Of a stretch of DNA of 36,739 nucleotides, positions 1 to 17,177 are shown piece by piece. Position 1 is the stretch's first letter; each line of letters opens with the position of its first letter. This DNA comes from a virus (taxonomy: Duplodnaviria > Caudoviricetes), in the IMG/VR virus record IMGVR_UViG_3300031588_000005, positions 1 to 36,739 of that record; one strand, written 5' to 3'. The notes beneath the pieces are model-generated. The model did no database searches. It worked only from the letters and a program-made list of their open reading frames with translations, and was not told the DNA's origin. The translations under genes and the position numbers were made by a program.

Positions 1-113
1 AATTTCGGAATGCCTTGAGACAATTGAAAGATACTCGCGAAGCACTAAAGACTGCCGAAAAAGATGTAGAATATTTGATTCAAGAAGCAATAATGAATCG
101 AAGGTTTTCTTAA
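1..113 (+). CDS. 3' end of a gene entering the window (partial)
   Basis: Open frame from nt 3 (FRNALRQLKDTREALK...NRRFS) to TAA at 111-113. Confidence 0.5.
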   Translation, partial: FRNALRQLKDTREALKTAEKDVEYLIQEAIMNRRFS

Positions 114-146: not shown

Positions 147-192
147 ATGACCCACCTGATATGGGATAAGGTGGCGAGTGACCAAATCCCAT
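147..192 (+). ncRNA. Putative H-type pseudoknot RNA element, family A copy 1
   Basis: CCACCT(152-157)/AGGTGG(169-174) stem; loop ATGGGAT(161-167) complementary to ATCCCAT(186-192); homologous to 3477-3521 and 3838-3882. Confidence 0.6.
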
Positions 193-252
193 TTTCAACA
201 CAAGCACACGCGCCGTCTCGATGAATTCGGTAGTTAAGAGCAGTGTTGACCC

Positions 253-290
253 TGGTCTCGCAGTGAAAATGACCACAAACTGCACTTACC
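253..290 (+). ncRNA. Putative pseudoknot/hairpin, family B, ending at ACTTACC
   Basis: TGGTC(253-257)/GACCA(271-275) and GCAGT(260-264)/ACTGC(279-283), immediately followed by the motif. Confidence 0.45.
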
Positions 291-536
291 ATCCATATCT
301 ACCAAACCTCCCTCCTAATAACGCAAGAGGGAATTGGGTGTGGATCCTTCACCAGCCTCTCTACGGTCAAATGAGAGGTCTATGATTACCAAGCGGAATC
401 CTGAGCAAGAACGCGGTAATTATCTATAAAAGGCTCACTTACCGTCGCCAGAATCCGCCTAGGACTCCTCTCTTATACCAGACAGATGAGAATGCGGGCT
501 TAACGCCCTCCTTAATTGGAGGTGGCGGCACTTACC
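291..536 (+). ncRNA. Two structured non-coding modules delimited by ACTTACC (291-443 and 444-536)
   Basis: CCCTC/GAGGG, CCTCTC/GAGAGG and ATTACC/GGTAAT stems, with TGAGC(402-406)/GCTCA(433-437) cross-pairing; second module closed by GTCGCC/GGCGGC; no credible ORF. Confidence 0.4.
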
Positions 537-628
537 GTTCCAGAGATGTAATGATCGGCAACGAGAATGAGTGTGCTGACCCCCACTCATTTCAGACCAA
601 AGAATTTGCCCTGGAACACTTACTTACC

Positions 629-733
629 ATGTACACACATACATGTTCATGCGGAATAGAATACGATGATGATTTGCCAATGCACCCAGAATGGAAAATC
701 TGCGAGTGCGGCACAATGAATTGCAGAATCTAA
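629..733 (+). CDS. Zn-ribbon microprotein (34 aa)
   Basis: ACTTACC-ATG at 622-631; CSC...CEC motifs. Confidence 0.65.
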   Translation: MYTHTCSCGIEYDDDLPMHPEWKICECGTMNCRI

Positions 734-763
734 ATCCGCATCTTATGGGTTGGGCAAACCCTA

Positions 764-1038
764 ATTGCCAAACACCAAAAATAATGCGTCTAGCAGTACG
801 CGCAAAACTGCACTTACCATGCGAAATTTTTCCAGAAAGCAAATTAGGCAGATGATTGAGGTTGAATACCCAGAAGAAAAGAAAAAGGGATTCATCAATA
901 TGCAGACTATTATTTGGTCGGTATATTTAGGCCGCGATAATATGGACTAAAACGCAAATATACAGTATGGGCAACACTTAGATTGCCAAACACCAAAAAT
1001 AATGCGTCTAGCAGTACGCGCAAACTGCACTTACCATG
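764..1038 (+). repeat. Direct repeat of ~57 bp (764-821 and 982-1038) containing a family B element and the motif
   Basis: ATTGCCAAACACCAAAAATAATGCGTCTAGCAGTACGCGCAAA(A)CTGCACTTACCATG in both copies. Confidence 0.95.
819..950 (+). CDS. Hypothetical microprotein (43 aa)
   Basis: ACTTACC-ATG at 812-821. Confidence 0.6.
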   Translation: MRNFSRKQIRQMIEVEYPEEKKKGFINMQTIIWSVYLGRDNMD

Positions 1039-1455
1039 TAAAAAACGCTCACACAGCCAAGAGTGTGTGACAAGTCCTCGATCAGAGTTCGAGGAGTGTT
1101 GATACAGCATAACTACACCGACCCTGCAGAGGTGTTCGGAGCAAGCGAAACCTTGCAACGCTCGAAAGAGCAACAACAATAAATAATGGTCGGATGAATG
1201 GAAATCCGATAATTGAGTCCAGTCCTCTACCAGAGGATAAAATGATGCCATTAGGCCGAAAGGCCACAAAATGCTCGAAAGAGCAACAGGGGTAGAAATG
1301 GATAGATGACTAAAAATCATCAATCCGGTTACTACCTATGAGCCGTAAAAATTCAAAGGCAAGTCATGGACAATCTGCAGATTGAAAATGACTGAGTGAC
1401 GACTGTAAAAGGTCGGCGTCAATGATAAGCTCAATTTCCACTACTCAACGGAACT
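1036..1455 (+). ncRNA. Putative large structured non-coding RNA
   Basis: More than 10 consecutive hairpins, including GAAA tetraloops (GCTC-GAAA-GAGC twice, GGCC-GAAA-GGCC), TCCTCGA/TCGAGGA, ACACC/GGTGT, TCGGAT/ATCCGA, TCCTCT/AGAGGA, AGTCAT/ATGACT; no + strand ORF of 60 aa or more; bounded by motif copies. Confidence 0.55.
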
Positions 1456-1475
1456 ACTGACCATAAATACTTATC

Positions 1476-1699
1476 ATAAAATATTGTGTGGAATAAGTCA
1501 GACCATTAAAGGGTGAACCTATAATTGGTTTGGTGAAGCATCTAAGCAGCAATTTTTACTGCGGTTCAGCGAACATGCCGAGAAAAAACTTTGACGAACA
1601 AAGGATCCCAAGTCTGGTCGTGCTAACCCTCGACTTAGGACAAAAGGATGGTGGACTCTCAATGACACCGCAGAGAGCAAGTATGCCACAATCTTGCTT
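1476..1699 (+). ncRNA. Putative structured non-coding module
   Basis: Hairpins GCAG/CTGC, CTTTG/CAAAG, AAGTC/GACTT, CTCTC/GAGAG, GCAAG/CTTGC; flanked by tandem motif pairs. Confidence 0.4.
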
Positions 1700-1719
1700 A
1701 CTTATCATAAATACTTACC

Positions 1720-3453
1720 ATGCACATGAAAAATGCAAGCGTAGAAATCTACGCTGATATGACAAAAGATGAAATAATGACTGAATTTACCCTAAAGGGT
1801 CTAAAAGCAGATTTGGCTGCTATTAGCAAATTGCCTCAATTTGAGCAAATTGCAAATGCAACGCCAAAGAATGCTAAAAGCCCTATCGTAGATACATTAA
1901 AAATTATTTCACAAGAAATAAAAAACAACGCAAAGCAAAACGACGCAACAGACCAGTTTATCGAGTGTGTAAGATCTTTTGAACATGCAAAATCAGAAAA
2001 TGACGGAACTTTCTTTATAGGAGATTCTAAAGTTGAGATTTTATTGTATGGGAAAGAGCACGCACAATCAAAGAAACAAGTCTTTGCAGACCTAGAAGAA
2101 AATGAAAGAACTGAGAAAACAGGTCCTAATGGAACATTTAATGTCCCTAATAAAGAAGTGTGGGTTTCCCACGCTCTTATAGAGGCAGCAGATACACAAG
2201 GAGCTACAACGCAAGAAGGCCGAAATATGGTGGCTGGCAATTTATTGTCAGGTTCCATGTCATTCGGTAATATAGGAATAGATCCTAGCGTTCATGCCTT
2301 GATGTCCAATTTACTATCTGATGACGGCAAGACAGCCAAAACATCAGGATTAATCAGCCGAGATGATGCTGATTCATTAGTAAAAGACCTCCAGTTACTA
2401 GCACCAGCGGGCACAAGTGTGCGCTACATCGCAGAAACAGACGACAAAGAATTCGCGTCTATGATTATTTATGATGTAACGCCACAATATACCCCTGGTA
2501 TGTTCAAAGTCGGCAAAGGCGTACCTCGTATAACTGAGAGAAACCCAACTGCACAAGAATTACTTGGCATTAACTTGGATCAATACCTGAGCCAAGAGAA
2601 TCAAAAGTACGCAGACATATTGGTATATCGCGTCAACGCACTGAGTAGGTTTAACCTAATCAGACTTGCAACTCCGTATGGACAAACCATACTACCTAAG
2701 ACTGGAAACCTTAAAGATTTACAAATCAATCACGGAATAGATCGAGATGACCCGAACTTGGGTACACTGAAACTCGCTCGAAATCCGAGCAAGAACGCTC
2801 GCTTCCTTGATTGGGAAATTGTGTCTCAACTGCTAGAAATGAAAACCAAAGTTCTACAAAAACTAGGTTATAGCATAGAAGTTCACAGTTCAATCTTCAT
2901 GAGAGGTTCGAAAGCAGAAAAGTCTTGTGATAAGAGAGGACGAAAAACTCTTGAACCACGGGATGTATCTGATATTAAGAAGGGAGCCAAGTTGGCAGAA
3001 CTTTACTTTCAACAAGTTTTAGGACAAGGCAAAGCAGCTTCGATTATGAATATCTTAGCTTCTGAGTCTAGGACAGCCCAACACGGCTATGAGCCAACTG
3101 GGGTATTATCCAACATCGCTTACCTACTAAAAATAGGCGATAAAGCAAATAAAAAGGATAAGTCCACTGTAAAAGCATTGCAACAATTAAAGGATAATAG
3201 CGTATTCTGGCCTTTCGGCTTTGAGAACGCCCAACTATCTGGAAAGAGCAATGGTTCTAAAGGAGAGCAAAAAGTCGGCTTAAACGGAAAAATTGGGAGA
3301 AATAGGTCTCAATTGACTCCGGCAATGGTGACAATCGGTGGCAGAACAGTCATCGGAGTAAAAGCAGTGCCTCTAACCAAGGATGCTTACGATCACCGAG
3401 CCAAGCAAAGCAAAAAACCAACACGCAAGCCTGCTCGAAAACAGCAGCGTTGA
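1720..3453 (+). CDS. Hypothetical protein (577 aa, basic C-terminal tail)
   Basis: Long ORF after ACTTACC; no family recognised. Confidence 0.9.
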   Translation: MHMKNASVEIYADMTKDEIMTEFTLKGLKADLAAISKLPQFEQIANATPKNAKSPIVDTLKIISQEIKNNAKQNDATDQFIECVRSFEHAKSENDGTFFIGDSKVEILLYGKEHAQSKKQVFADLEENERTEKTGPNGTFNVPNKEVWVSHALIEAADTQGATTQEGRNMVAGNLLSGSMSFGNIGIDPSVHALMSNLLSDDGKTAKTSGLISRDDADSLVKDLQLLAPAGTSVRYIAETDDKEFASMIIYDVTPQYTPGMFKVGKGVPRITERNPTAQELLGINLDQYLSQENQKYADILVYRVNALSRFNLIRLATPYGQTILPKTGNLKDLQINHGIDRDDPNLGTLKLARNPSKNARFLDWEIVSQLLEMKTKVLQKLGYSIEVHSSIFMRGSKAEKSCDKRGRKTLEPRDVSDIKKGAKLAELYFQQVLGQGKAASIMNILASESRTAQHGYEPTGVLSNIAYLLKIGDKANKKDKSTVKALQQLKDNSVFWPFGFENAQLSGKSNGSKGEQKVGLNGKIGRNRSQLTPAMVTIGGRTVIGVKAVPLTKDAYDHRAKQSKKPTRKPARKQQR

Positions 3454-3454
3454 G

Positions 3455-3932
3455 CCCTTCGGGGCAACTAGACACAATGACCCACCGATACGGGATAGGT
3501 GGCGAGTGAACAAATCCCGTAACTGACCATGCAAGATAAACGCACGAATAATGAACCAATGAACGAAAGAAAACTAATAATAAAGACCGGTTACGGAACT
3601 GCATGGAAGGAAAATGACGAAATAAAAGTCAAGTTCGCTTCCATGTCCGGAATACCAACAGTCTACAATATTACGGATCTAGATTTATCAGCCGCCATAG
3701 GTTACAACTTTCCCTTGACTATTCGTCAAGTGTTAGGAAGTTGGGGACCATCTAATGAACTTAAAATGTTTTTAGAAAAAAGAATGGCCAAGTGAATAAT
3801 GAACGAGGTTTACGCCCCTTCGGGGCAACTAGACACAATGACCCACCGATACGGGATAGGTGGCGAGTGAACAAATCCCGTAACTGACCATGCAAGATAA
3901 ATGCACGAATAATGAACCAATAATGAACGAAA
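3455..3932 (+). repeat. Direct repeat of ~114 bp (3455-3568 and 3816-3932): UUCG hairpin + family A pseudoknot + motif + first ~13 codons
   Basis: CCCTTCGGGGCAACTAGACACAATGACCCACCGATACGGGATAGGTGGCGAGTGAACAAATCCCGTAACTGACCATGCAAGATAAA identical in both copies. Confidence 0.97.
3529..3795 (+). CDS. Hypothetical protein
   Basis: Motif-led ORF, 88 aa; N-terminus shared with next gene. Confidence 0.75.
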   Translation: MQDKRTNNEPMNERKLIIKTGYGTAWKENDEIKVKFASMSGIPTVYNITDLDLSAAIGYNFPLTIRQVLGSWGPSNELKMFLEKRMAK

Positions 3933-4936
3933 TTGCAAGCCAAAATGGCCGCATCTCTTCTCTAACTGAAAGAGAAGCCGCCATAAGGAAACGCGCTATG
4001 AAAATAAGTAAGCGTAATTCCGGTGCAGGCAAAAGTGCTCTAAGAAGAGCATCTTACCTAAAAATATTGATTTCGATAATAAAGCCATACTTGGATAACC
4101 TCACTACCGAAGAAGAAGATGTAGTAATACTGAATAAAAATGCTAAGATGCTGACACCGAATGTGTTAGTACAAAAAATTAACTATGCATTGAATTTGTT
4201 TTATGACGCATCTAATGACGGTCATGTGACTGAAAAAGTTATACAATTGGCAAAATGCAAAGTAGAATGGAACGAAGAGATCCCTACAAATAAACAAGGG
4301 AAACTCGATGGAAGATTCAAGCCAGTACGATTCACAGCAACCACGATGGTTGTCAAATCCGAAGCCCCGCCCAAAGCGGAAGCCATGGCTACTTCTACGA
4401 GAACGCCGCAAGTACCCTATAATTGGGTAGATGCTATGCAGAGAAGGTCCAAGAAATTAGAATCTTCTCGTACACGCAGAGCAAAGGCTCGTTTGAATGA
4501 CGAAAAACTGCATTTGAAAAAAGTTACTAAAGAGAAAGGTTGCCACATCAGGAAAAGGAATTCTGAAATCATGGGCACCCGTAGAGGCAAGTGTGAACTT
4601 TGTGAATCAATCCTAGAAGGAAATGTTAAACATTCTAATAGGGTTAAAAGATCACTTTCGCACGCCCCTCCTCAAAGAAGAACAAGATTTTATCGGAAAA
4701 AACAGCAACCACGCATCGAATCAGATGTTTGCAAAAACGATTTATCAAGCAATCCAGGTGACTGGGACAAATCGGAGAAGCAATGGCTCTCAAACAACAT
4801 AAAAATAAATCAAGAAGCCGCAGCAGAATTGCTCAAGAAAGGGGAACAACACCTTTCTGAGATAATCTCCAAGAATATGACCCAGAAAGTAAGAGAAAAG
4901 TCAAATGTTGACTACCTTGTACTGGAAGCCGAATAA
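3890..4936 (+). CDS. Hypothetical basic protein (348 aa, one CxxC)
   Basis: Motif-led long ORF, K/R rich. Confidence 0.85.
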   Translation: MQDKCTNNEPIMNEIASQNGRISSLTEREAAIRKRAMKISKRNSGAGKSALRRASYLKILISIIKPYLDNLTTEEEDVVILNKNAKMLTPNVLVQKINYALNLFYDASNDGHVTEKVIQLAKCKVEWNEEIPTNKQGKLDGRFKPVRFTATTMVVKSEAPPKAEAMATSTRTPQVPYNWVDAMQRRSKKLESSRTRRAKARLNDEKLHLKKVTKEKGCHIRKRNSEIMGTRRGKCELCESILEGNVKHSNRVKRSLSHAPPQRRTRFYRKKQQPRIESDVCKNDLSSNPGDWDKSEKQWLSNNIKINQEAAAELLKKGEQHLSEIISKNMTQKVREKSNVDYLVLEAE

Positions 4937-5019
4937 TCAAATTCGTTAGCCTTAATTGGCAAAAAGCAAGACCCTTCGGGGCAGTGGAAGGCACACCACT
5001 ACCTATGTGCCTACTTACC

Positions 5020-5442
5020 ATGACATTGCACATATTGTTAATGCCCCGACCAGGGCATCAACCAAACAAGAATGACGGAACACCAATTGACTATCTCGTT
5101 TTCGACGAGAGTAAGGTCAAGGACCCCGTTCATCCTAACAAGTTAGATCCAAAAAATCCGGATTCTTACTATGCTAAAGCAACAAAAAGGATTCAATCAA
5201 TTTATGAGGAAGATCCAACCATATTTCACGATTTACAAGTAGCTCTTTACGCATCAGGCCTTACTTCTGCCCTATTCGGGACAGTAAACGCCTGTGTCAA
5301 ACTAGGGCTAAATCTAAGCGTAGGAATATGGGACAGAGAAACAGAACAATACAATTTTCAGCCATGGGAACACAAAAATTCCAAATTATTTGTTGAAAAA
5401 ATTGTTCCGCTTTCTGCACTTAATAAAATAATTTACAAGTGA
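5020..5442 (+). CDS. Phage-type hypothetical protein
   Basis: ACTTACC-ATG at 5013-5022; LYASGLT...WDRETEQY pattern resembles common phage hypotheticals. Confidence 0.8.
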   Translation: MTLHILLMPRPGHQPNKNDGTPIDYLVFDESKVKDPVHPNKLDPKNPDSYYAKATKRIQSIYEEDPTIFHDLQVALYASGLTSALFGTVNACVKLGLNLSVGIWDRETEQYNFQPWEHKNSKLFVEKIVPLSALNKIIYK

Positions 5443-5451
5443 TACTGACCA

Positions 5452-5724
5452 ATGTCGAATCGAAAAGCAGCAACAGCAGCAACAGACATAAGTACCAAGT
5501 CAAGGTACTTCAAAAAACTAGAACAAGACATTAAATTTGGTAATGAATACCAAAAGAAAAGGGCATCAAAGAATGTAAAGGAACAGATTCTATTATGGGA
5601 ACTAGACCAAAGCAGTCCTTATGATGATCCAATAACAAATGATGAAAAATACTATTCTGCCAATTGGGCAGATAGTTACCACGGCACAATCAATCTCGAA
5701 TTATGGGATGAATTGAGCCAATGA
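5452..5724 (+). CDS. Hypothetical protein
   Basis: ACTGACC-A-ATG; 90 aa. Confidence 0.75.
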   Translation: MSNRKAATAATDISTKSRYFKKLEQDIKFGNEYQKKRASKNVKEQILLWELDQSSPYDDPITNDEKYYSANWADSYHGTINLELWDELSQ

Positions 5725-5734
5725 CTAAAATAAA

Positions 5735-5772
5735 GCCGAGGCACCAATATGGGTGTCTCGGCACTTTTTTTT
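5735..5772 (+). terminator. Stem-loop plus U-tract terminator
   Basis: GCCGAGGCACC/GGTGTCTCGGC 11-bp stem followed by AC and T8. Confidence 0.75.
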
Positions 5773-5790
5773 GGTCAATCCGAACTTATC

Positions 5791-6147
5791 ATGAGTACAG
5801 CAATACATCATGCGATGAGTTCAGTTAAGAAATGGGGCGGAAAGCCGGAAGATTATATGTCCATACACGAATGGTTCGACCAATCAAAAGAACATGGATG
5901 GAATTTCACCCATAGATCGATACTACATCACACACTAGGAATCACAATCTGCGAACAAGTCTTTGGCTCAATGTGGACTGTGAAAAGCACAGGAAAAGAA
6001 GTACCAACAAGATGGATAGGAGAACAGCATCTTATGGAAGATTTCGGATTTGTTCCGACTCCAGCAGATTGGATGAAAACTATCAAACCAGCAGATTGGA
6101 TGATACGAGGCGGTAAAACCGCCAAAGAATTAGGCCTTGAAGCCTAA
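5791..6147 (+). CDS. DUF6915-like protein
   Basis: ACTTATC-ATG; HAMSSVKKWGG..EDY..IHEWFDQSK, HR..LHH..G, IGEQH..EDFG.VPT..DW signature. Confidence 0.8.
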   Translation: MSTAIHHAMSSVKKWGGKPEDYMSIHEWFDQSKEHGWNFTHRSILHHTLGITICEQVFGSMWTVKSTGKEVPTRWIGEQHLMEDFGFVPTPADWMKTIKPADWMIRGGKTAKELGLEA

Positions 6148-6155
6148 TACTGACC

Positions 6156-6380
6156 ATGACAGATATTGAAAAATATAAAAAACACTTAGGAAAAAAAGTA
6201 GAATGGGTTGTAGACTACGGAGACGATCTACCTAATGATATATTCATTATACATTCTATCCTTTGGGCAGGAGATGTGGGTACTTTCACAGACGGACCGT
6301 TTGAAGAGCATATGTTCCTAAACGAATGCGGCGACAGATGGATGCCCCTTGATTATGTGTTATCACACTTAATAGAGTGA
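6156..6380 (+). CDS. Hypothetical protein
   Basis: Motif-led ORF. Confidence 0.8.
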   Translation: MTDIEKYKKHLGKKVEWVVDYGDDLPNDIFIIHSILWAGDVGTFTDGPFEEHMFLNECGDRWMPLDYVLSHLIE

Positions 6381-6395
6381 TTTCACCTACTGACC

Positions 6396-6713
6396 ATGAT
6401 AAAATTATCAGAGATTCCCATACAATGCGAAGTATGGGTATGTGAAAGATTAACGCCTGACGGCGGAGTATGCGAAAAATGCGTCGACGCTACAATGAAT
6501 AGCGGCGCAAACAATACTTGTGCAAATGATGAATGCGATATTCATTTCATGTGCGACAATTGCGGTGAAAAAGCAATTGTTGGTTACATGGGTGGTGAAG
6601 GTTCAGCATTCCTTTGTTGCGAAGATTGTTGGGAAGAAGTTAGTATGCTTAGTCCCTCAGACCGCGATTACCAAAGCGAACAAAAACAAGATTACTGCGA
6701 ACATTGCAGATAA
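6396..6713 (+). CDS. Cys-rich Zn-finger protein
   Basis: Motif-led; multiple CxxC. Confidence 0.8.
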   Translation: MIKLSEIPIQCEVWVCERLTPDGGVCEKCVDATMNSGANNTCANDECDIHFMCDNCGEKAIVGYMGGEGSAFLCCEDCWEEVSMLSPSDRDYQSEQKQDYCEHCR

Positions 6714-6719
6714 CTGACC

Positions 6720-7055
6720 ATGAGTATAAAAAAATTAGACCCAGCAAAAGTTTGGGTCGTAGCAGAAAACCAATTGTTTGGATGGTGTGCTTGTGATGTT
6801 ATTGACGGCCTCCTACGCACATACGCCACTCAAGAGGAAGCGCAGAAGGAAGCAGAGGGAGTAATCGATGAACTACACACACCACACACACCATACGATG
6901 ATGAATCATGGGGTGCAATTCTACTAGAAGATGCCATCATAGGTGATAATGTAGATTTCATCATTTTTCCTTACGGAAGTTGGAAACCCTACTTACATTT
7001 CATTGTAAGTATAAAGGAATATAGGGATGAATTTCCTAATCAAAAATATGATTAA
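6720..7055 (+). CDS. Hypothetical protein
   Basis: Motif-led ORF. Confidence 0.8.
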   Translation: MSIKKLDPAKVWVVAENQLFGWCACDVIDGLLRTYATQEEAQKEAEGVIDELHTPHTPYDDESWGAILLEDAIIGDNVDFIIFPYGSWKPYLHFIVSIKEYRDEFPNQKYD

Positions 7056-7064
7056 ATACTGACC

Positions 7065-7313
7065 ATGACAGAAGAAGTAAAGAAGTTCCCGTATAAAGAA
7101 GGGGATGATTTCAACGAAGTAGGACACGGCTCATCATGCCCAGCATGTGAAGCTCCATGGTTCGAAGATTCGGAAGACGAAGAAGGATTCAATTGCACAA
7201 ATTACGATCGCTGGGGGCGTGAATATGAAGCCTTATGTTCAATATGTGGATATTTCGCTTACATCGAAATGAAAGCAGTTGTAATAAAACAATCATGGAA
7301 AAAAAAACCATGA
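7065..7313 (+). CDS. Zn-ribbon protein
   Basis: Motif-led; CPAC...CSICG. Confidence 0.8.
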   Translation: MTEEVKKFPYKEGDDFNEVGHGSSCPACEAPWFEDSEDEEGFNCTNYDRWGREYEALCSICGYFAYIEMKAVVIKQSWKKKP

Positions 7314-7322
7314 CTACTGACC

Positions 7323-8180
7323 ATGACACTATTAAGTGAAATACTCGGTATTGAATTAACAAAATTCACTATTGAAAATATGACTGAAAAACAATGGAGA
7401 GCCCTTTCCGATGAAGAATTGAAAAATACTCAATCATTCGCGGATATTATTTCTTCATTAAATGATAAAACAAACAGGGATATGGAACGGCTTAGAAATG
7501 CAGTAAACAATCCAAAACCTTCCGAGTGGCAACAGCCATTGATAGAAGGTTACAAGAAAGAGATAGAAAAGTTCGAAACTTTGACTACCTCAGAAGTAAA
7601 TGACAGAAGGACAGAAGAAGCCCTTCTGACCATTAAGAATCAAACAGTGTATCCAGGAGAAGGATTTCTAAATCAAAAAGAGTGGGAAATAGCAAAAGAA
7701 AGCGTTCTTGCCCTATGGAAACAAGATGGAGACGAACCTCATAAAGCAATGAGAGAATTTGTAAAGAGAAACGAATGGCAAAACATCGAAGCCGCGTTTT
7801 CAGGAGGACATGATTCAGGTTATTTTGAATCAGTTACTTATACAAAGAAAGGAGATATGGAGGGCATTAAACACCCATTAAATATAAACGAATTAGAAGT
7901 TTATAGTTGTCGATTTGACAACCATACTCTAACTCCATCCGGTTGGGAAACCAAAGGAAAAATACTCAATCTTGCAACTTTAATGAATGCTAGATACATA
8001 AGTATGTATAGCCCTTTGAACAGATCTCTAACTGAAAACTTTGGAAGTTTCGCTAATCACCCCTCAGTTAATGGGGTAGTGACCTACTATGCGGAACCTT
8101 CGGAAGATGAAGATGAAGATCCAGATGACCCCTGGGAACCATATGATATAGAATATTCAGTATATGGAAGAAGTTACTGA
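7323..8180 (+). CDS. Protein with DUF6878-like C-terminal domain
   Basis: FSGGHDSG motif; paralog of 12701-13576. Confidence 0.65.
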   Translation: MTLLSEILGIELTKFTIENMTEKQWRALSDEELKNTQSFADIISSLNDKTNRDMERLRNAVNNPKPSEWQQPLIEGYKKEIEKFETLTTSEVNDRRTEEALLTIKNQTVYPGEGFLNQKEWEIAKESVLALWKQDGDEPHKAMREFVKRNEWQNIEAAFSGGHDSGYFESVTYTKKGDMEGIKHPLNINELEVYSCRFDNHTLTPSGWETKGKILNLATLMNARYISMYSPLNRSLTENFGSFANHPSVNGVVTYYAEPSEDEDEDPDDPWEPYDIEYSVYGRSY

Positions 8181-8190
8181 ATAACTGACC

Positions 8191-8424
8191 ATGAAGATTA
8201 TTACCGAAACAGGTGAAGTATTCGAAGAATACACACATAAACTAATTGGAAAACTCGTAACAATAACAGATAAAACAGGTAAAAGGACAGAAGCAGTAAC
8301 AGAAAGATACTGTTCTCACTGCGATGGGCACATGATAGGAACAATCTCTGCTTGCGGAGGATTTCTGGCCCAGCACAAATACCTACACGACGATGATTCT
8401 CAAATAGCAATAATTGGAACATAA
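8191..8424 (+). CDS. Hypothetical protein (CxxC)
   Basis: Motif-led ORF. Confidence 0.8.
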   Translation: MKIITETGEVFEEYTHKLIGKLVTITDKTGKRTEAVTERYCSHCDGHMIGTISACGGFLAQHKYLHDDDSQIAIIGT

Positions 8425-8432
8425 GACTGACC

Positions 8433-8606
8433 ATGACAAAAACGAGAGAAGAGATAGTGGAAGACTTGATCAGCCACGCTAAGATATTAGGCGGTGGCGT
8501 TGAGGACTGGCAATTCATAGAAAATATAATTTTCATGGGCATGGCTTTACTAGAAATAGACCATGATGGAGTTGAAGAAGACTCCACAACTGACCATGAC
8601 AATTAG
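8433..8606 (+). CDS. Hypothetical microprotein (57 aa; not in ORF track)
   Basis: ACTGACC-ATG at 8426-8435; MTKTREEIVEDLISH...; reads through the next motif. Confidence 0.7.
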   Translation: MTKTREEIVEDLISHAKILGGGVEDWQFIENIIFMGMALLEIDHDGVEEDSTTDHDN

Positions 8607-8961
8607 AATAAACTTGAGTAAATATGAAGGCCACACAAAAGGGCCTTGGGACCTCGAACTCTGGGGAGATGAAGCGTATATTTACGCGCCACAAATAATG
8701 ATCCCAGAACCAGAAGGGAAGAGTATATGCAAAATGCACGAACACAACCAATCACCAGAACAATTGCAAATAAACGGATGCCTGATGGCAGACGCACCAC
8801 TTATTCTAGCAGAATACAAGAAGTTGCGTAAAGCATACGAAGTAATGGGCGAAGCATTGAGGGAGAATGGGACAGACTACTGCGAGCATTGTCTTAGGGT
8901 GTATTGCGATACATCCGATGAAGTATTGTATAGGCACCGAGAAGGAAGGTGCTTAACATGA
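8596..8961 (+). CDS. Phage hypothetical of the HTPGPW...LIAAAP type
   Basis: HTKGPW and LMADAP motifs; start moved to motif ATG. Confidence 0.75.
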   Translation: MTIRINLSKYEGHTKGPWDLELWGDEAYIYAPQIMIPEPEGKSICKMHEHNQSPEQLQINGCLMADAPLILAEYKKLRKAYEVMGEALRENGTDYCEHCLRVYCDTSDEVLYRHREGRCLT

Positions 8962-8976
8962 ATGAACCAACTGACC

Positions 8977-10032
8977 ATGATACTAAAAAATATGAAACTG
9001 CAAGTAGAATGGGAATTACCCGTTCTACCAAAGCAGACATCACAAAAAGTAAATGGTTCTGGAACGGTACTAACGCCTTTCCCTAACAAAGTGATTAGAC
9101 TATATGAGAATAATAAAACAGACAAGAATATAATGGACACAGTAAAAGGCTGCAAAGGTGGATGTTTCGGTTGTTATGCCGAATCCTCCATGGGAGTCAC
9201 ATTCCAGGCCATTAAGTTCGACAGTCCACAATCTCAAATACTCGAACCCGTAAAACTTCAAACTGATGTGCTAAAACACTTAGAAAGGTGTAGTAAAAGC
9301 ACAACAGATATTCCGAAGGAATGGGTTAGAAACGGAGTAATGGGAGATCCCTCATATGACTGGGATCTAACAGTCAAAGCAGCAGAAACAGTCAGCATGG
9401 CTGGTTCAAGAATGGTGATTATCACCAAGTTTTGGCATACACCTAGTCCATCACAACTAGGGAGGTTAGCACTTTCTGGCGCAATCCTACATTGGAGCGT
9501 CATAGCAGGGTATGACTGGACTAGAGAATTCGATCCGAATTCCCGAGTTCCAGTGATTATAGACATTATCAGGAGATACAAAAAAATGACTCCGCAAGAA
9601 TCGATATTCATGCGGCTATGTACATTCCCCTGGAAAAAGAACCAACCAATCGAAGAAGGTATGGGAGATATCCTATGGCATGGTCAAGACGCTTTCTACA
9701 ATCTAACTATAAAAGAAGGAATTAGAATAATTGAAACCCCTTGGCAAATGAGAAGGAGTGATCCTAGAATGGAACACATAGACAAAGACATATTGATACA
9801 TCCAAAATCTTACAAAGCCAAAAAGTACGGCTTAAAAGATGAAGATGGCAATACAAAACTCAAAACAGGGTGGGTCTATGGTGGTCCAAAATACTTTAAC
9901 GATAAAGACGCACTTACAGAAGCAGATGCACATGTAATAGGTTGTGTAACAGACTGTGGGCCTTGTCCAAACCAATGCGGTTCGACAAGCACTACAAGCA
10001 CACAAAGAACATTTCATGCTCTTATGATGTAA
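8977..10032 (+). CDS. Radical SAM-like Fe-S protein
   Basis: CxxxCxxC (GCKGGCFGCYA), RNGVMGDPS, C-terminal CxxxCxxCxxxC. Confidence 0.7.
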   Translation: MILKNMKLQVEWELPVLPKQTSQKVNGSGTVLTPFPNKVIRLYENNKTDKNIMDTVKGCKGGCFGCYAESSMGVTFQAIKFDSPQSQILEPVKLQTDVLKHLERCSKSTTDIPKEWVRNGVMGDPSYDWDLTVKAAETVSMAGSRMVIITKFWHTPSPSQLGRLALSGAILHWSVIAGYDWTREFDPNSRVPVIIDIIRRYKKMTPQESIFMRLCTFPWKKNQPIEEGMGDILWHGQDAFYNLTIKEGIRIIETPWQMRRSDPRMEHIDKDILIHPKSYKAKKYGLKDEDGNTKLKTGWVYGGPKYFNDKDALTEADAHVIGCVTDCGPCPNQCGSTSTTSTQRTFHALMM

Positions 10033-10040
10033 GACTGACC

Positions 10041-10328
10041 ATGACAACAACAAAACAGTTGAAAGCCGCCATCGACGAAGCGCGGCAAAATTATGATGAT
10101 AAGGCTACATATTTAGGAGAATACCATGGGAAATGGTACCACGAAGGCGTAGCAATCGCTTTCGATAGAAGCTACACCATGACAATAATCAAAACTTTAT
10201 TGGAGTATTGTCCTAACATCGGAGAACCCGACCAAAAGGACGATCTTGCATTCGAGGCATTATGGTCTTGGGACAAATCAAAGTTCTCAGACGGCAAAGA
10301 ACCAGTCGCTCGGGACGAAGACGAATAA
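10041..10328 (+). CDS. Hypothetical protein
   Basis: Start moved to motif ATG. Confidence 0.8.
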   Translation: MTTTKQLKAAIDEARQNYDDKATYLGEYHGKWYHEGVAIAFDRSYTMTIIKTLLEYCPNIGEPDQKDDLAFEALWSWDKSKFSDGKEPVARDEDE

Positions 10329-10337
10329 AAACTGACC

Positions 10338-10829
10338 ATGGGATATACACACTATTGGTATATGAAAAAGGACAAGAAAGTGTCCGATAAAAAATGGAAT
10401 AATATGACAAGGGATGCCAAGCAACTGCTTGAAGAAAGCCCAATAATTGAAAGAGCTAAACAAAACAATCAATACGAACACTGGAACGACCCTACAATTA
10501 CGGATAATGAAATCCGTTTCGACGGTGGACACGAAACATTCGTCTTAGAAAGGAAACCGATTCAAAGTAGTTGGAGAAAAGACGAAGATATGGTATTCAA
10601 TTTCTGCAAGACTGCGAGAAAGGAATACGACGGATTGGTTACAGCAACTTTGTTGCTCGCCAAACACCACTTAGGAGATGAAATTACAATTTCTAGCGAC
10701 GGTGACGCACAAGAATGGGCAGAAGGAGCCTGGGATGGTGTTCCATCGGGATATGAATTTGTAAAAGAAATACTCAATGAAAAAGATGCTAAGGCTGCTT
10801 TCGTAGCCGTTACATCAGGATTCGAGTAA
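10338..10829 (+). CDS. Conserved phage hypothetical (MGYTHYW...FCKTARKxYD type)
   Basis: MGYTHYW, HETF, FCKTARKEYD and SSDG motifs. Confidence 0.85.
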   Translation: MGYTHYWYMKKDKKVSDKKWNNMTRDAKQLLEESPIIERAKQNNQYEHWNDPTITDNEIRFDGGHETFVLERKPIQSSWRKDEDMVFNFCKTARKEYDGLVTATLLLAKHHLGDEITISSDGDAQEWAEGAWDGVPSGYEFVKEILNEKDAKAAFVAVTSGFE

Positions 10830-10836
10830 ACTGACC

Positions 10837-11727
10837 ATGATAAGCCTACGAAAAAGATTAATGGAATTCTTGGAGCACCCTAAACCGCTTCAAGTGATCT
10901 ACCAAAACTTCGGAGAAGAATTACCTACCACTATTCGTGGAAGGTTAAATGAAAATATAGGAAAGTGCTTCCAAAGAATAGAAAGAGGTGTATATATTGC
11001 CCATTGTGGTGATAATCAAGCCCTCATTCTTGAAGGAGACGCATGGGAAACATTACCAACATTCCCCGATAATCACTTTGATGCGATAATTACTGATCCC
11101 CCGTATTCTGCTTTAGACAAGCAAATGCAAACAGGAACAGCTAGAGAACGAAACAGAAGAGGTGGTTGGGATTTCCAAACAAGAGATCTTGACGAAGATT
11201 TGCTAAATGAATTATTCAGAGTGCTAAAGCCAAGTGGACACATGTTTGTGTTCATGCCTGCTGCCGGACAATCAATGTACGGAGATACAGCAGATTATAA
11301 TGAACAACAGCGCCAATTAACAATGGGTGCTGGATTCAGATATAATAGGACTTGGATTTGGGATAAGGTGCAAATTGGTATGGGGTATTATGGAAGAGCG
11401 AGGCACGAACTCATCTTCTTCTACTCCAAAGGAAAACCATACAACATGGGTGGATTCAAGCGAAAGCCGAATCCACAGCACTATGTTCACGATGTTCTAG
11501 TAGCAACTAGACCAAGTCACAGTAAAAAGAAGCATCAAACAGAGAAGCCAATAGAAATACTGGCAGATATGCTCCAATTCAGTACAGACGAGGGCGACAT
11601 AGTCCTCGACCCATTCGCAGGCGGCCTTGGATTAGCCGAGGCTTGTTTGAAAACGGGTCGAAATGCCGTCTGTATCGAACTAGATATGGAGAACATTCAA
11701 ACAGGCCTTACGCGCTTCGATGATTGA
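10837..11727 (+). CDS. DNA N6-adenine/N4-cytosine methyltransferase (beta class) with short N-terminal putative wHTH
   Basis: ITDPPY catalytic motif, RVLKPSG, HQTEKP, VLDPFAGG SAM-binding motif after DPPY. Confidence 0.92.
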   Translation: MISLRKRLMEFLEHPKPLQVIYQNFGEELPTTIRGRLNENIGKCFQRIERGVYIAHCGDNQALILEGDAWETLPTFPDNHFDAIITDPPYSALDKQMQTGTARERNRRGGWDFQTRDLDEDLLNELFRVLKPSGHMFVFMPAAGQSMYGDTADYNEQQRQLTMGAGFRYNRTWIWDKVQIGMGYYGRARHELIFFYSKGKPYNMGGFKRKPNPQHYVHDVLVATRPSHSKKKHQTEKPIEILADMLQFSTDEGDIVLDPFAGGLGLAEACLKTGRNAVCIELDMENIQTGLTRFDD

Positions 11728-11737
11728 GAAACTGACC

Positions 11738-11839
11738 ATGAAAGCAATGTTTGAACCAACCGATGACCTCGGAGTATTGAGATTCCGAATAATAAAAGAT
11801 GAATACATCTTCGAATTATGGGATTTAGATGACGAATAA
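11738..11839 (+). CDS. Microprotein (33 aa; not in ORF track)
   Basis: Exactly fills the interval between two motif copies (11731, 11840). Confidence 0.7.
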   Translation: MKAMFEPTDDLGVLRFRIIKDEYIFELWDLDDE

Positions 11840-11846
11840 ACTGACC

Positions 11847-12101
11847 ATGACAGAAAAAACATACGGCCACAAAGGCCTACACAAACTGTATGGAATATCA
11901 GCAGGTGTGAAAATTGAAATCACCGTTGAACAAATCATCTCCGACATAAACAAAGGATTAGGATTCGCAGATGACGAATACTACTTCTTAACTGAAGAGG
12001 AGAGGGACAATTACTTGAAAGACGAGATATGTTCACACTTAAATTATAGCGATACTATGATAGGTATGGTTTGTAATGACTGTGGACTAATAGAAACATA
12101 A
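11847..12101 (+). CDS. Hypothetical protein (C-terminal Zn ribbon)
   Basis: Motif ATG; CSH...CNDCG. Confidence 0.8.
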   Translation: MTEKTYGHKGLHKLYGISAGVKIEITVEQIISDINKGLGFADDEYYFLTEEERDNYLKDEICSHLNYSDTMIGMVCNDCGLIET

Positions 12102-12111
12102 GGGTGATTAA

Positions 12112-12372
12112 ATGAGCAGATACACGATACAAGTTGAAAACGACGATTACTTTGATGTGATTTACGGATTTGATACTGGAGGATTATTGGGCGAAAGAAG
12201 CCCCACCTTTGGTTTTTTTCTACAGGCTTGGCTAATCGTAGATGGAGTTACGGACTTGACCTATAACAAAACAGGTGGCAAATCAGCAATAATTGAATCT
12301 CCGTTTTGGGATGAAATTGTAAAGTCAAATCCAGACCACAGCATGAAGATTGCACTTGACTTGCCTTTTTAG
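12112..12372 (+). CDS. Hypothetical protein
   Basis: No motif; GGGTGA Shine-Dalgarno-like site upstream. Confidence 0.8.
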   Translation: MSRYTIQVENDDYFDVIYGFDTGGLLGERSPTFGFFLQAWLIVDGVTDLTYNKTGGKSAIIESPFWDEIVKSNPDHSMKIALDLPF

Positions 12373-12385
12373 GCTAATACTGACC

Positions 12386-12691
12386 ATGAGACCAGCACTT
12401 ATTAGAAAGAAAGGAGAAGAACTAGATGTATTGCGCCGAAAGGCCTCTGCATTATTCCAGATGCTTCCCGATACAAACGAAAATATAGCGAATATTGCGA
12501 TTGAAACATATATTGCACTATGGCAAGCGCAGCGTAAAGCACGATACGAACTATTCGGAATGGAAATACAAGATAAAGAATTTCCGTTACATTGGAAAAA
12601 CCAATTATCTGCAGCAGCAAATCCCAATAAGGAAGCAATCAAAATAATTACCAAATTTGTAAAGGCTGGCTACGCCAACTTACATTTGTAA
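12386..12691 (+). CDS. Hypothetical protein
   Basis: Start moved to motif ATG. Confidence 0.8.
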   Translation: MRPALIRKKGEELDVLRRKASALFQMLPDTNENIANIAIETYIALWQAQRKARYELFGMEIQDKEFPLHWKNQLSAAANPNKEAIKIITKFVKAGYANLHL

Positions 12692-12700
12692 TTACTGACC

Positions 12701-13576
12701 ATGACAGCATACAAAGAAAATATAGTTCTCGTAGAGTCTAAGACTCTCCCTGAATGGAACAATATGAACGATGATGAATTAATGAAAACTAAAAGTTATG
12801 GAATTTCACTTGAATACATGACAAAAGACAAAATACTAAGATTGGAAAGAGCCGAGAAAAGACTGAAAGAATCGACCTATCCAGAATACAATGAGGCCCG
12901 AGAATGGGAATCAAAGTCATATCTTAGGCTACAATTAGAGGGAGAAAAAGATTCAAACTCTAATGAAAATGCCCTTTTGACACTAAAAGGAGAAATTAAA
13001 AGATTTAGTACGGCATTCCCCAACAATACATTTTTCACTAGCGACAAAAAACAATCTGAAAAAGGATTTTTGCTTATGAAAGAACTAGGTTGGGCATGGT
13101 GCCGTATATCTTTTAGCGGAGGGCATGATTCTGGCGGGATCGATGAAATTGATTATGAATCAGAGACTACTTCAATTCAGAAGACGGGACATTACGATGT
13201 AGAATCAATGATTGAAAAGTATACGAAAAATTGTATAGAGGGTAAAACTCCTACTGGGGCTGACCCTTTCTTCTCGATTGAAAATCAGCAAAATCAAGAT
13301 AAATACATCCACTTACGGAAATATCATATCAAAGAAGATAATCCATTGTTAGATGGTATCTATGATAAATTTGATTTTAACGGTTTTCCAAGTGTTGATG
13401 GATATATAGAATGGGACCTAAAGAAAGAAATTCTGAAGGACGATGTTCTTGTACCCAATCCAGATTACAAAAAAACACCAATAATGCAATTCAGAACAAC
13501 TGAATATGTAGATTATCAATCAACAATTGATGATCCAGATGATGAAATCAGAGGCCAATCCTATTCAATGGATTGA
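12701..13576 (+). CDS. Protein with DUF6878-like domain
   Basis: FSGGHDSG and PSVDG motifs; paralog of 7323-8180. Confidence 0.65.
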   Translation: MTAYKENIVLVESKTLPEWNNMNDDELMKTKSYGISLEYMTKDKILRLERAEKRLKESTYPEYNEAREWESKSYLRLQLEGEKDSNSNENALLTLKGEIKRFSTAFPNNTFFTSDKKQSEKGFLLMKELGWAWCRISFSGGHDSGGIDEIDYESETTSIQKTGHYDVESMIEKYTKNCIEGKTPTGADPFFSIENQQNQDKYIHLRKYHIKEDNPLLDGIYDKFDFNGFPSVDGYIEWDLKKEILKDDVLVPNPDYKKTPIMQFRTTEYVDYQSTIDDPDDEIRGQSYSMD

Positions 13577-13587
13577 ACTCACTGACC

Positions 13588-14664
13588 ATGAAAATACCAT
13601 TTTTCAGAAAGAAAAAACAAAATGAAGTGGGTGCAGAAGCCCTATGGGAATCTGCAACAAAAACGGCAGGCACGAAGTCAAAAGAAACCGAAGTAATGAA
13701 CGACGACGGCCCGAGGGATCGAACTAACAGTAAAATCTCTCATACACCGAAACATACACCTTTGTTCAACGCAAAGGCGGAAAGCCGTAGAAAAGCTATG
13801 GGTTCGGCGATGCAAATATTCGCCTCACATAAGAAACCGAAAGAACAATTCGGAATCAGAACTGTGAAAGTCCTAGAAAAAAGTGTAAAAGATCGTTTCA
13901 ACGACATGCACGAAACCGTTCAAGATGTGTGTAAGGGAAACCTAACCTCAGTAGTCCTTTATGGAACTGCAGGAATAGGCAAAACTCACACAGTCAAGAC
14001 GGCCCTTAAACAACACAATCTGATTGAGGGAAAAGATTGGACTTTACTCACAAGCAAATGTACACCATCCGCTTTATACGAAACAGCACTAAGATACCGA
14101 CACCCAGGAAATATAATTATACTAGACGATGTTAATTTCGCAAAAGGGACTACAGGTAAGGATATGTGGGAATTGGTGAAAGCCATGACCGACACTTACT
14201 CGGTGAGAACTGTATCCTCAACTACTAAAGGTTCTAACATGAAGTTAGTCGGCAGCCCCGATGAAGCAGAAAAGTTCCTAAAGCAGCAAGGAAGCAAGGA
14301 TAATAAAATCCCAACAATGTTTGGGTTTCAAGGCAGATTAATTGTAATAACAAACTTGCCTGAAAGTTTCTTTGATGAAGCATATCTAAGCAGAAGCATA
14401 ACAGTTCCACTTTTCCTAACAGAATCGGAGAAAATAGAGCACATGAGAAATATTCTAGAACAAATTAAACCTCACATGGACATATTCATCAAAGAAGAAG
14501 TCCTAAACGCCCTCAAAACGCAACATGAGGAAGATCTAGAATTGAACAAAATCGCAGGGACAGAAAGCCTGACACGAACCCAGTTCGATATACGGACACT
14601 TGAGTTAGCTCTCAATATGGCCGAAACAGATTCAAACTGGAGGAAAAGACTTCACTTCTTGTGA
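13588..14664 (+). CDS. AAA+ family ATPase
   Basis: Walker A GTAGIGKT, Walker B IIILDD, sensor-like IVITN, LSR. Confidence 0.88.
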   Translation: MKIPFFRKKKQNEVGAEALWESATKTAGTKSKETEVMNDDGPRDRTNSKISHTPKHTPLFNAKAESRRKAMGSAMQIFASHKKPKEQFGIRTVKVLEKSVKDRFNDMHETVQDVCKGNLTSVVLYGTAGIGKTHTVKTALKQHNLIEGKDWTLLTSKCTPSALYETALRYRHPGNIIILDDVNFAKGTTGKDMWELVKAMTDTYSVRTVSSTTKGSNMKLVGSPDEAEKFLKQQGSKDNKIPTMFGFQGRLIVITNLPESFFDEAYLSRSITVPLFLTESEKIEHMRNILEQIKPHMDIFIKEEVLNALKTQHEEDLELNKIAGTESLTRTQFDIRTLELALNMAETDSNWRKRLHFL

Positions 14665-14673
14665 TTACTGACC

Positions 14674-15498: not shown

Positions 15499-15510
15499 GC
15501 ACTGACCATA

Positions 15511-16881: not shown

Positions 16882-16988
16882 TCTGATTAACGCTACTAAG
16901 TTTGAATCGGAAAAAAATACCACCGGAATTATTTTCGGTTGGCATGAAACACGGAAGCGTAACTGTCATTTGATAGTTCGCACTGACC

Positions 16989-17171
16989 ATGGAAAGCCAT
17001 TGCAGAAAATGTGGAAAAAAATTAAAAGATGAAACTTCACGAAAAAGAGGATTTGGACCCGTATGTGGTGCAGGCCTCGATTGGAAAGAACCAATCAGCG
17101 TGACAGATCTTCTTTTTCCCAAAAAGAAAACCTTGAGAGATAGGATTACAAGCCTCCTCAAAGACGAATAA
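16989..17171 (+). CDS. DUF6011-like Zn-finger protein
   Basis: CRKCGKKLKDETSRKRGFGPVC. Confidence 0.85.
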   Translation: MESHCRKCGKKLKDETSRKRGFGPVCGAGLDWKEPISVTDLLFPKKKTLRDRITSLLKDE

Positions 17172-17177
17172 CTGACC

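What the first reader, a model, noticed from the sequence alone, without database searches (positions are those of the whole stretch)
147..3889. Repeated H-type pseudoknot with a compensatory base-pair change (family A)
Seen: three copies (147-192, 3477-3521, 3838-3882) of ATGACCCACC..GGGAT..GGTGGCGAGTGA.CAAATCCC. Stem 1 is CCACC/GGTGG. The loop pairs with the 3' tail as TACGGGAT/ATCCCGTA in copies 2-3 and ATGGGAT/ATCCCAT in copy 1, a C-G to T-A covariation. Copy 1 also has an extra T-A pair in stem 1. Each copy lies shortly after a stop codon, and copies 2-3 end directly at ACTGACC. I cannot match it to HDV-like, pistol, preQ1 or SAM-II consensus. Inference: a new cis-RNA motif such as an exonuclease block, small ribozyme or ligand/protein sensor. 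The flanking ATGA and GAGTGA might form a kink-turn-like L7Ae site.
Basis: partly seen in the sequence, partly recalled or inferred. Interest (0 to 1): 0.8.

Follow-up and report, generated by a model that had tools for sequence, protein, structure and literature searches.

The report
Pseudoknot end-caps on punctuated viral RNAs
A small knotted RNA fold, kept by compensating base changes in viruses that likely infect marine archaea, lies just after genes and before a seven-letter mark where the viral RNA appears to be divided into single-gene pieces, so it likely shields the new RNA ends from decay, and the cutter may be a rearranged RNase P-like RNA encoded next door.

Summary
The three copies are real. 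Six distinct versions from three virus lineages give double-sided changes at 3 of 8 stem-2 pairs; stem 1 never varies. Rfam has no match. The window is the early block of a 118-129 kb tailed virus, probably of Poseidoniales archaea. ACTGACC occurs 63 times on one strand, 59 times directly before ATG. Metatranscriptome contigs respect this mark: 0 of the 24 longest bridge one (19 expected) and 17 start 0-50 nt after one, while DNA contigs run through. Every family A copy lies 15-48 nt after a stop and 5' of a mark, often touching it, as do unrelated pseudoknots. Best reading (0.5): a 3'-end cap that blocks the host exosome on single-gene RNAs cut from a long transcript. It is not a known ribozyme, riboswitch or standard kink-turn. 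Just upstream of the window the same virus encodes a ~600-nt RNA with RNase P-like core helices in permuted order, the boldest candidate for the cutter (0.3). Nothing was tested biochemically. A viral RNA polymerase A'' homolog keeps a promoter/terminator reading of the mark alive.

The parts
147..193 (+). Family A pseudoknot, copy 1: 5' GAC 149-151, stem 1 152-156/170-174, loop 1 157-159, stem 2 160-167/186-193, loop 3 175-185
3477..3521 (+). Family A copy 2: stem 1 3482-3486/3498-3502, stem 2 3489-3496/3514-3521; ends 0 nt before the mark
3838..3882 (+). Family A copy 3, duplicate of copy 2; ends 0 nt before the mark
3455..3560 (+). 106-nt direct repeat (partner 3816-3921): CUUCGG-type hairpin, pseudoknot, mark and start of next gene
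   Evidence: (D9)
3522..3531 (+). Mark ACTGACC + ATG after copy 2 (same at 3883-3892 after copy 3)
284..36417 (+). Array of 63 ACTGACC and 8 ACTTACC marks, likely RNA boundaries; 59 of the 63 directly before ATG
1..113 (+). 3' end of the short gene upstream of copy 1 (stop 111-113)
1720..3453 (+). 577-aa gene of unknown function whose 3' flank holds copy 2; first large early gene in related viruses too
3529..3795 (+). 88-aa gene whose 3' flank holds copy 3
253..283 (+). Unrelated H-type pseudoknot (GCAGT/ACTGC stem) ending 0 nt before ACTTACC; closes the unit that holds copy 1
785..811 (+). Unrelated pseudoknot ending 0 nt before ACTTACC (second copy 1003-1028)
4983..5012 (+). Third pseudoknot type, after the stop of gene 3890-4936, ending 0 nt before ACTTACC
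1036..1455 (+). Non-coding RNA unit bounded by two marks; own contig in four RNA runs; conserved in G001, L210, L211
1463..1712 (+). Second non-coding unit bounded by two marks; own contig in three RNA runs

Best explanation
Family A is a conserved H-type RNA pseudoknot that lies between a stop codon and the next ACUNAHC mark, and it likely acts as a 3'-end cap that would stop the host exosome on single-gene RNAs that are likely cut from one long early transcript at those marks. Steps: (1) shown in sequence: the fold covaries in stem 2 and always has this position; (2) shown as a strong pattern in assembled RNA contigs, not as mapped ends: RNA units begin just after a mark and end before the next; (3) inferred: the ends come from an endonucleolytic cut between the mark and the AUG, leaving leaderless mRNAs and an upstream piece ending in pseudoknot plus about 7 nt; (4) inferred: that knot with so short a tail resists 3'-to-5' threading and tunes the lifetime of selected early RNAs; (5) speculative: the cutter is the permuted RNase P-like RNA encoded 340-930 nt upstream of the window.
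For: Covariation: 73 of 74 cells paired, 3 of 8 stem-2 pairs with double-sided change, covariation score reached by 1 of 500 shuffles. Position: all 8 genomic contexts lie 15-48 nt after a stop; the gap to the next mark is -1 to 1 nt in 5, 22-23 nt in 2 and 90 nt in 1, where another pseudoknot touches the mark. Unrelated pseudoknots take the same slot: 6 of 11 candidates in 1-5100 end 0 nt before a mark. RNA: 0 of the 24 longest RNA pieces in 1-20000 bridge a mark (null 19.3 +/- 1.8) and 17 start 0-50 nt after one (null 2.3); in 1-5400, 2 of 25 bridge (null 11.7) and 14 start there (null 2.8). A DNA contig spans 3872-14525, and an RNA piece (11876-12330) does bridge a gene boundary that lacks the mark. 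No promoter-like bias at -45 to -1 of 59 marks. 4 of 4 likely host genomes carry an Rrp41-like gene at 300-306 bits (cut-off 318.7); the archaeal exosome channel takes single-stranded RNA only (PMC3838930, passages).
Against: No biochemical test and no mapped RNA end: only assembled contigs, without strand, and DNA can be in RNA libraries. In the deepest run one contig (1-580) bridges three marks, another (995-1441) one, and 1734-3545 runs 17 nt past the mark after copy 2. About 55 gene units end at a mark with no pseudoknot, so the cap is not required. Stem 1 never varies (0 of 5 pairs), partly because my searches fixed it. Unpaired GA, GAGU and 5' GAC are invariant, more than a generic block needs. 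Only 6 distinct versions from 3 lineages; the pair-count statistic alone is reached by 31 of 500 shuffles. G001 encodes an enlarged RNA polymerase A'' homolog, so the mark could be read at the DNA level.
Confidence: 0.5

Rival explanations
1. The knot is a binding or docking site for a viral or host protein (or for the processing enzyme) that sets how well the neighbouring mark is cut or how the upstream mRNA is translated.
For: Invariant unpaired GA, GAGU and 5' GAC and an invariant stem 1; it touches the mark in 5 of 8 contexts.
Against: Unrelated pseudoknots, hairpins and a tRNA occupy the same slot, and most marks have no structure; no binding partner identified.
Confidence: 0.2
2. The mark is a DNA-level stop-and-start signal for a virus-modified RNA polymerase, each unit is a primary transcript, and the knot serves as a pause or termination aid or still as an end cap.
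For: The first base after the mark is a purine at all 71 + strand ACTGACC/ACTTACC sites, as at transcription starts; G001 encodes an 839-aa Rpo1C (A'') homolog, E 3e-15 to archaeal subunits.
Against: One 7-bp word would have to both end and start transcription every few hundred bases; no upstream bias; read-through contigs exist as expected of precursors; the A'' gene itself lacks the mark.
Confidence: 0.12
3. The knot blocks 5'-to-3' decay (xrRNA-like), leaving small RNAs that start at its 5' edge after the upstream mRNA is degraded.
For: The invariant 5' AC could pair with the invariant GU of loop 3 and hold the 5' strand (inference); position after a stop codon.
Against: No RNA contig starts at a copy's 5' edge; pieces 1-580 and 88-255 start upstream of copy 1; where the knot touches the mark the product would be only about 50 nt.
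Confidence: 0.1
4. Ligand-sensing switch whose folding exposes or hides the mark and start codon of the next gene.
For: H-type fold with conserved loop bases ending at a translation start in 5 of 8 contexts.
Against: Downstream sequence varies from a 348-aa gene to a 3-codon frame or no gene; no Rfam riboswitch match.
Confidence: 0.05
5. Small self-cleaving ribozyme of a new class.
For: Repeated, compact, pseudoknotted, near RNA ends.
Against: RNA contigs run through copies 1 and 2; RNA boundaries occur at marks with no knot.
Confidence: 0.03

Closest known systems
MALAT1 / MEN-beta 3' triple helix after RNase P cleavage (recalled, not read here)
   Same: A folded element sits at the 3' end that an endonucleolytic cut leaves and is thought to block 3'-to-5' decay.
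   Different: Here a 45-nt H-type pseudoknot in an archaeal virus; the cut site would be a 7-nt word with no tRNA-like structure downstream.
Phage T7 early mRNA processing by RNase III (recalled, not read here)
   Same: One early transcript divided into gene-sized RNAs at intergenic sites.
   Different: T7 sites are hairpins read by a host enzyme and keep ribosome-binding leaders; here about 60 sites are a linear word directly before AUG and hosts do not use it.
Exoribonuclease-resistant RNAs (xrRNA) of flavi- and dianthoviruses (recalled)
   Same: Compact pseudoknot downstream of a stop codon.
   Different: No Rfam match; RNA contigs do not start at the knot; placement fits a 3' end.
Archaeal RNase P RNA (Rfam RF00373) - for the neighbouring ~600-nt RNA
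   Same: CR-I, CR-IV and CR-V-like words and P2, P3, P4, P5, P7, P15, P19-like helices; 12 of 44 pairs with double-sided change.
   Different: Order is permuted (CR-IV and CR-V precede CR-I), P4 pairs without the bulged-U register, CR-IV is 2 nt shorter, Rfam score 9.7 bits against a cut-off of 84.
Poseidoniales viruses (Magrovirales, Adrikavirales; PMC11706807, PMC13108676)
   Same: Tailed marine archaeal virus; relative G001 has a thermosome, and no DNA polymerase was found among the 54 G001 proteins scanned.
   Different: Family membership not tested; the passages I saw mention no such RNA elements.

Membership tests
H-type pseudoknot | Two crossing stems with loop-to-tail pairing supported by covariation | tested here: met
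   Stem 2: 3 of 8 pairs with double-sided change; stem 1 invariant
H-type pseudoknot | Both stems form together in solution | not testable with these tools
   ViennaRNA cannot fold knots; it picks one stem or the other
Any Rfam 15 family (riboswitch, ribozyme, cis element) | Match to a covariance model | tested here: not met
   No match at E<=1 in the window except a chance snoRNA hit; none at E<=10 on 3440-3540
Standard kink-turn / L7Ae site | Tandem sheared G-A, A-G pairs next to a 3-nt bulge (consensus recalled) | tested here: not met
   GAGUGA is GAGUAA in 2 of 6 versions; an extra C separates the 5' GA from stem 1
Self-cleaving ribozymes (HDV-like, pistol, twister, hammerhead, hatchet) | Class-specific catalytic core | tested here: not met
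   No Rfam match; cores otherwise compared from recall
Self-cleaving ribozymes (HDV-like, pistol, twister, hammerhead, hatchet) | Self-cleavage | tested here: inconclusive
   RNA contigs run through copies 1 and 2; no in vitro assay
Frameshift or read-through pseudoknot | Slippery heptamer or stop codon 5-9 nt upstream (recalled) | tested here: not met
   No slippery site; stop-to-stem distance 15-48 nt
3'-end stability element | Lies at the 3' end of an RNA | tested here: inconclusive
   Position before marks and RNA contig pattern agree, but ends are not mapped and repeats break contigs at copies 2-3
3'-end stability element | Resists 3'-to-5' exonuclease | not testable with these tools
   Needs in vitro assay
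xrRNA | Stable RNA beginning at the structure; 5'-to-3' nuclease stop | tested here: inconclusive
   No contig starts at a copy; low depth, no assay
RNase P RNA (neighbouring ~600-nt RNA) | CR-I/CR-V P4 helix crossing P2 | tested here: met
   8-bp P4, 4 pairs with double-sided change in 5 sequences of 4 viruses
RNase P RNA (neighbouring ~600-nt RNA) | Bulged U in P4 that binds the catalytic metal (PMC11143913, PMC10966300, passages) | tested here: not met
   Covarying register leaves two U-G pairs and no bulged U; host RNA has the bulge
RNase P RNA (neighbouring ~600-nt RNA) | Canonical 5'-to-3' order and RF00373 score over cut-off | tested here: not met
   Permuted; 9.7 bits against 84; host profile finds no hit
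RNase P RNA (neighbouring ~600-nt RNA) | Endonuclease activity | not testable with these tools
   Needs in vitro assay

The most novel reading that the evidence does not exclude
These viruses carry their own RNA-based processing machine: a naturally circularly permuted RNase P-like ribozyme, transcribed first, cuts the 40-kb early transcript at about 60 ACUNAHC marks directly before AUG, turning it into leaderless single-gene mRNAs and non-coding RNAs, and swappable pseudoknot caps such as family A set the lifetime of chosen pieces.
Probability: 0.3. Interest if true: 0.93.

Novelty: new variant of a known kind. Interest (0 to 1): 0.7.

Why it matters
Gene expression in viruses of Marine Group II archaea, among the most abundant surface-ocean microbes, is essentially unknown. 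If right, this is a way to run about 60 genes from one promoter by cutting at a seven-letter word, with small pseudoknots as modular stability parts; it makes 3'-end protection against the archaeal exosome testable with a 45-nt RNA. If the permuted RNase P-like RNA is the cutter, it would be a natural sequence-specific mRNA-cutting ribozyme in a virus. If the knot is only a local end cap, it is a modest new motif of a narrow virus group.

Tried and rejected
Homolog scans that gave only chance hits: 0 of 27 loci; 0 of 119 matches; 18 of 64 parts scanned; 2 of 3 loci chance; 7 of 9 chance, the other 2 already held. Protein-anchored scans found nothing. No family A copy in the fourth virus G002 (39% complete) or in 11 likely host genomes (best 16 bits). 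Leader-body joining (nidovirus-like or trans-splicing) at the mark: no joints or fitting loose ends in RNA contigs. Per-gene TATA promoter or Shine-Dalgarno role: no upstream bias; SD-like words at 10 of 59 marks only. Host-derived signal: mark at background level in 18 of 18 genomes. Protein nuclease candidates: no PemK/MazF or Pop5 match in G000-G002, nor in two host genomes; the 577-aa first protein has no clear fold match (best Foldseek E 0.08; best Z 5.7, rmsd 2.6 over 65 residues). No catalytic RNA polymerase DxDGD motif in long frames of G001 or the window. Contig depth was not used to rank genes (runs were chosen with 1-5100; the unit ending in copy 3 has low depth). A host-derived CR-I matrix did not pick the viral CR-I. 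Expression of the permuted RNA was not tested: it lies outside the window and both read-laying runs were used.
Full report
OBSERVATION. Copies 2 and 3 belong to one 106-nt duplication, so the window holds two independent versions. Rfam gives nothing for the element. ViennaRNA cannot fold knots and picks stem 2 in the window copies and stem 1 in two homologues, with unremarkable z-scores.

WHAT THE WINDOW IS. The record is a 36.7-kb virus fragment. Its ORFs are small, on one strand, and include PCNA, ArdA, DNA methylases and DUF3860 (70 ORFs scanned). Loci L185, L204 and L205 are the same virus (99.7-100%; L204/L205 lie on a 118-kb contig). A complete relative, G001 (128.8 kb, terminal repeats), has tail-fibre, thermosome and PCNA genes. 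The viral tRNA-Lys differs at 5-7 of 74 positions from 13 of 51 genome loci, 7 of them named Thalassarchaeaceae, Thalassarchaeum or Poseidoniales and 6 only Euryarchaeota or Methanobacteriota; the next best differ at 11 or more. The host is therefore likely Marine Group IIb (inference). Public RNA runs from seawater hold the region.

HOMOLOGUES AND COVARIATION. blastn found a copy in G001. A metagenome scan (56 of 64 parts scanned) gave 121 loci, of which 8 carry the motif and the rest are chance; a second copy in L210 and L211 turned up. This makes 6 distinct versions from 3 lineages (L210 and L211 are 87-96% alike). On their alignment 73 of 74 cells pair; 3 of 8 stem-2 pairs change on both sides; the covariation score is reached by 1 of 500 shuffles, the pair count by 31 of 500; stem 1 never varies. 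The aligner left a gap at one stem-2 position in 4 rows; one search shows that U-A pair in all. Stem 1 was part of most of my patterns, so its invariance is partly built in; a model without stem 1 pairs found no diverged copy in 241 kb of viral loci or in 11 host genomes. Invariant unpaired letters: 5' GAC, GA in loop 1, GAGU in loop 3. The kink-turn idea fails: GAGUGA is GAGUAA in 2 of 6 versions.

THE MARK. ACTGACC occurs 63 times on + and never on -, 59 times directly before ATG; ACTTACC occurs 8 times, all in 284-5019. G001 has the same block; a fourth virus uses ACTGAAC. In 18 of 18 cellular genomes the word is at the level of its reversed control. There is no base bias at -45 to -1 (at most 0.08 bits) and TATA-like words occur at 1-2 of 59 sites. 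Marks also separate non-coding modules and follow the tRNA and the large RNA described below.

RNA DATA. One search showed 32 of 140 pieces (the longest; 24 RNA, 8 DNA). None of the 24 RNA pieces bridges a mark by 31 nt on both sides (random placement 19.3 +/- 1.8) and 17 start 0-50 nt after one (2.3 expected). One search showed all 27 pieces on 1-5400; I dropped 2 foreign ones (1185-1250, loose on both sides). Of 25, 2 bridge (11.7 expected) and 14 start after a mark (2.8 expected); 7 pieces are common to both sets. A DNA contig spans 3872-14525. One RNA piece, 11876-12330, crosses a gene boundary that has no mark and an SD-like word, an internal control. Against: X7 1-580 bridges three marks, X7 995-1441 one, and X7 1734-3545 runs 17 nt past the mark after copy 2. 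These are assembled contigs without strand; repeats break them at copies 2-3; the tool rates shared stops as a weak hint. No leader-body joints were seen.

POSITION OF THE KNOT. In 8 genomic contexts family A lies 15-48 nt after a stop (38 nt for copy 1, read; the 15 printed for it is another frame) and upstream of a mark: gap -1 to 1 nt in 5, 22-23 nt in 2, 90 nt in 1. What follows the mark varies from a 348-aa gene to no gene. A scan with criteria I set after seeing the motif found 11 distinct H-type candidates in 1-5100, 6 ending 0 nt before a mark, against 2 candidates in the next 30 kb. So several unrelated knots fill the same slot, which argues for a structural job at an RNA 3' end. RNA contigs run through copies 1 and 2, against efficient self-cleavage.

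MECHANISM. Most likely a long early transcript from the TATA-like repeats upstream of the window is cut at each mark, giving leaderless mRNAs; the upstream piece ends in knot plus about 7 nt. Four of 4 likely host genomes have an Rrp41-like gene just under the curated cut-off, and the archaeal exosome channel admits only single strands (PMC3838930, passages). The knot would then slow 3'-to-5' decay of chosen RNAs. Cut, cut position and resistance are inferred. Most units have no knot. G001 encodes an enlarged A'' subunit homolog, so a DNA-level reading of the mark remains open.

THE CANDIDATE CUTTER. About 340-930 nt upstream of window base 1 (L205) and at the same place in L210, L211, L280 and G001 lies a ~600-nt RNA. 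It has CR-IV- and CR-V-like words before P2/P3 and a CR-I-like word, joined by a linker helix. Of 44 pairs in 8 RNase P-like helices, 98.2% of cells pair and 12 change on both sides, 4 of them in P4; 0 of 500 shuffles reach this (5 sequences of 4 viruses; I drew the structure from these sequences). Rfam RF00373 touches only CR-V of one virus (9.7 bits, cut-off 84). A host profile finds no hit; a host CR-V matrix ranks the viral site first or tied first in 4 of 5 sets and second in L280, the CR-I matrix misses. 14 of 18 cellular genomes tested have a canonical RNase P RNA. The viral P4 lacks the bulged-U register that binds the catalytic metal (PMC11143913 and PMC10966300, passages), so it may be inactive. 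RNase P contacts leader positions -8 to -1 and leaves a 3'-OH, which would fit a 7-nt word 5' of the cut. I found this RNA; later showed that other agents noted it in other genomes, which is not independent evidence.

LITERATURE. Searches listed nothing on this knot, the mark or a permuted viral RNase P RNA; the library lacks most subscription papers. Seen: PMC13108676 whole text; PMC11706807 abstract, outline, passages; PMC11143913, PMC10966300, PMC3838930 passages; PMC10690425 search listing and a search of 4 of its 6 listed supplements, no hit. Its two alignment archives and three large files could not be read and may hold the motif. MALAT1, T7 RNase III, xrRNA and kink-turn features are recalled.

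VERDICT. Real, uncatalogued pseudoknot; best read as a 3'-end cap in a punctuated early transcript (0.5). New variant of a known kind; interest 0.7, carried by the system around it.

Noticed in passing
L205 about 4120-3530 (- strand), 340-930 nt upstream of window base 1; L211 1854-2440; L280 7399-7975; L035 15549-14990 (-): ~600-nt conserved RNA with RNase P-like core helices in circularly permuted order, P4 without bulged U.
   Followed up: partly
window 1036-1455: Structured non-coding RNA between two marks, own contig in four RNA runs, conserved in G001, L210, L211; no Rfam match.
   Followed up: partly
window 1463-1712: Second non-coding unit between marks with its own contig in three RNA runs.
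   Followed up: no
window 253-283, 785-811, 1003-1028, 4983-5012; L280 8254-8282 and L035 about 11222-11194 (-): At least three further H-type pseudoknot types; one shared by G001 and L280 with changed stem 2.
   Followed up: partly
L033 9544-12063 (+), G001 69544-72063: 839-aa homolog of archaeal RNA polymerase subunit A'' (Rpo1C) with large insertions.
   Followed up: partly
G001 near 49750 and 61050 (-), 69530 (+): Late-type genes preceded by a CCCCTAT-containing word instead of the mark; possible late promoter.
   Followed up: no
L205 4700-4130 (-); L211 1230-1840; L035 16180-15560 (-); L280 6850-7390: Five to seven repeats of GCCGRTGGC followed by a TATA-like stretch ahead of the early block; promoter array or origin iterons.
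   Followed up: no
L205 3337-3410 (-); L035 14795-14871 (-): tRNA-Lys(CUU) close to Thalassarchaeaceae copies, followed within 0-3 nt by a mark.
   Followed up: yes
window 1720-3453: 577-aa first early protein; 11 hits among 1.8 billion representatives, confident model (mean pLDDT 76), no fold match, helical N-terminus resembling Rho-N/SAP domains (Z about 5).
   Followed up: partly
window 15040-15225: 15-nt tandem repeat encoding EETVV, also present in G001.
   Followed up: no
window 127: 8-nt insertion variant upstream of copy 1 in L205 and in RNA run X8.
   Followed up: no
L280 8150-8215: GATTT tandem run inside an inverted repeat right after the tRNA mark.
   Followed up: no
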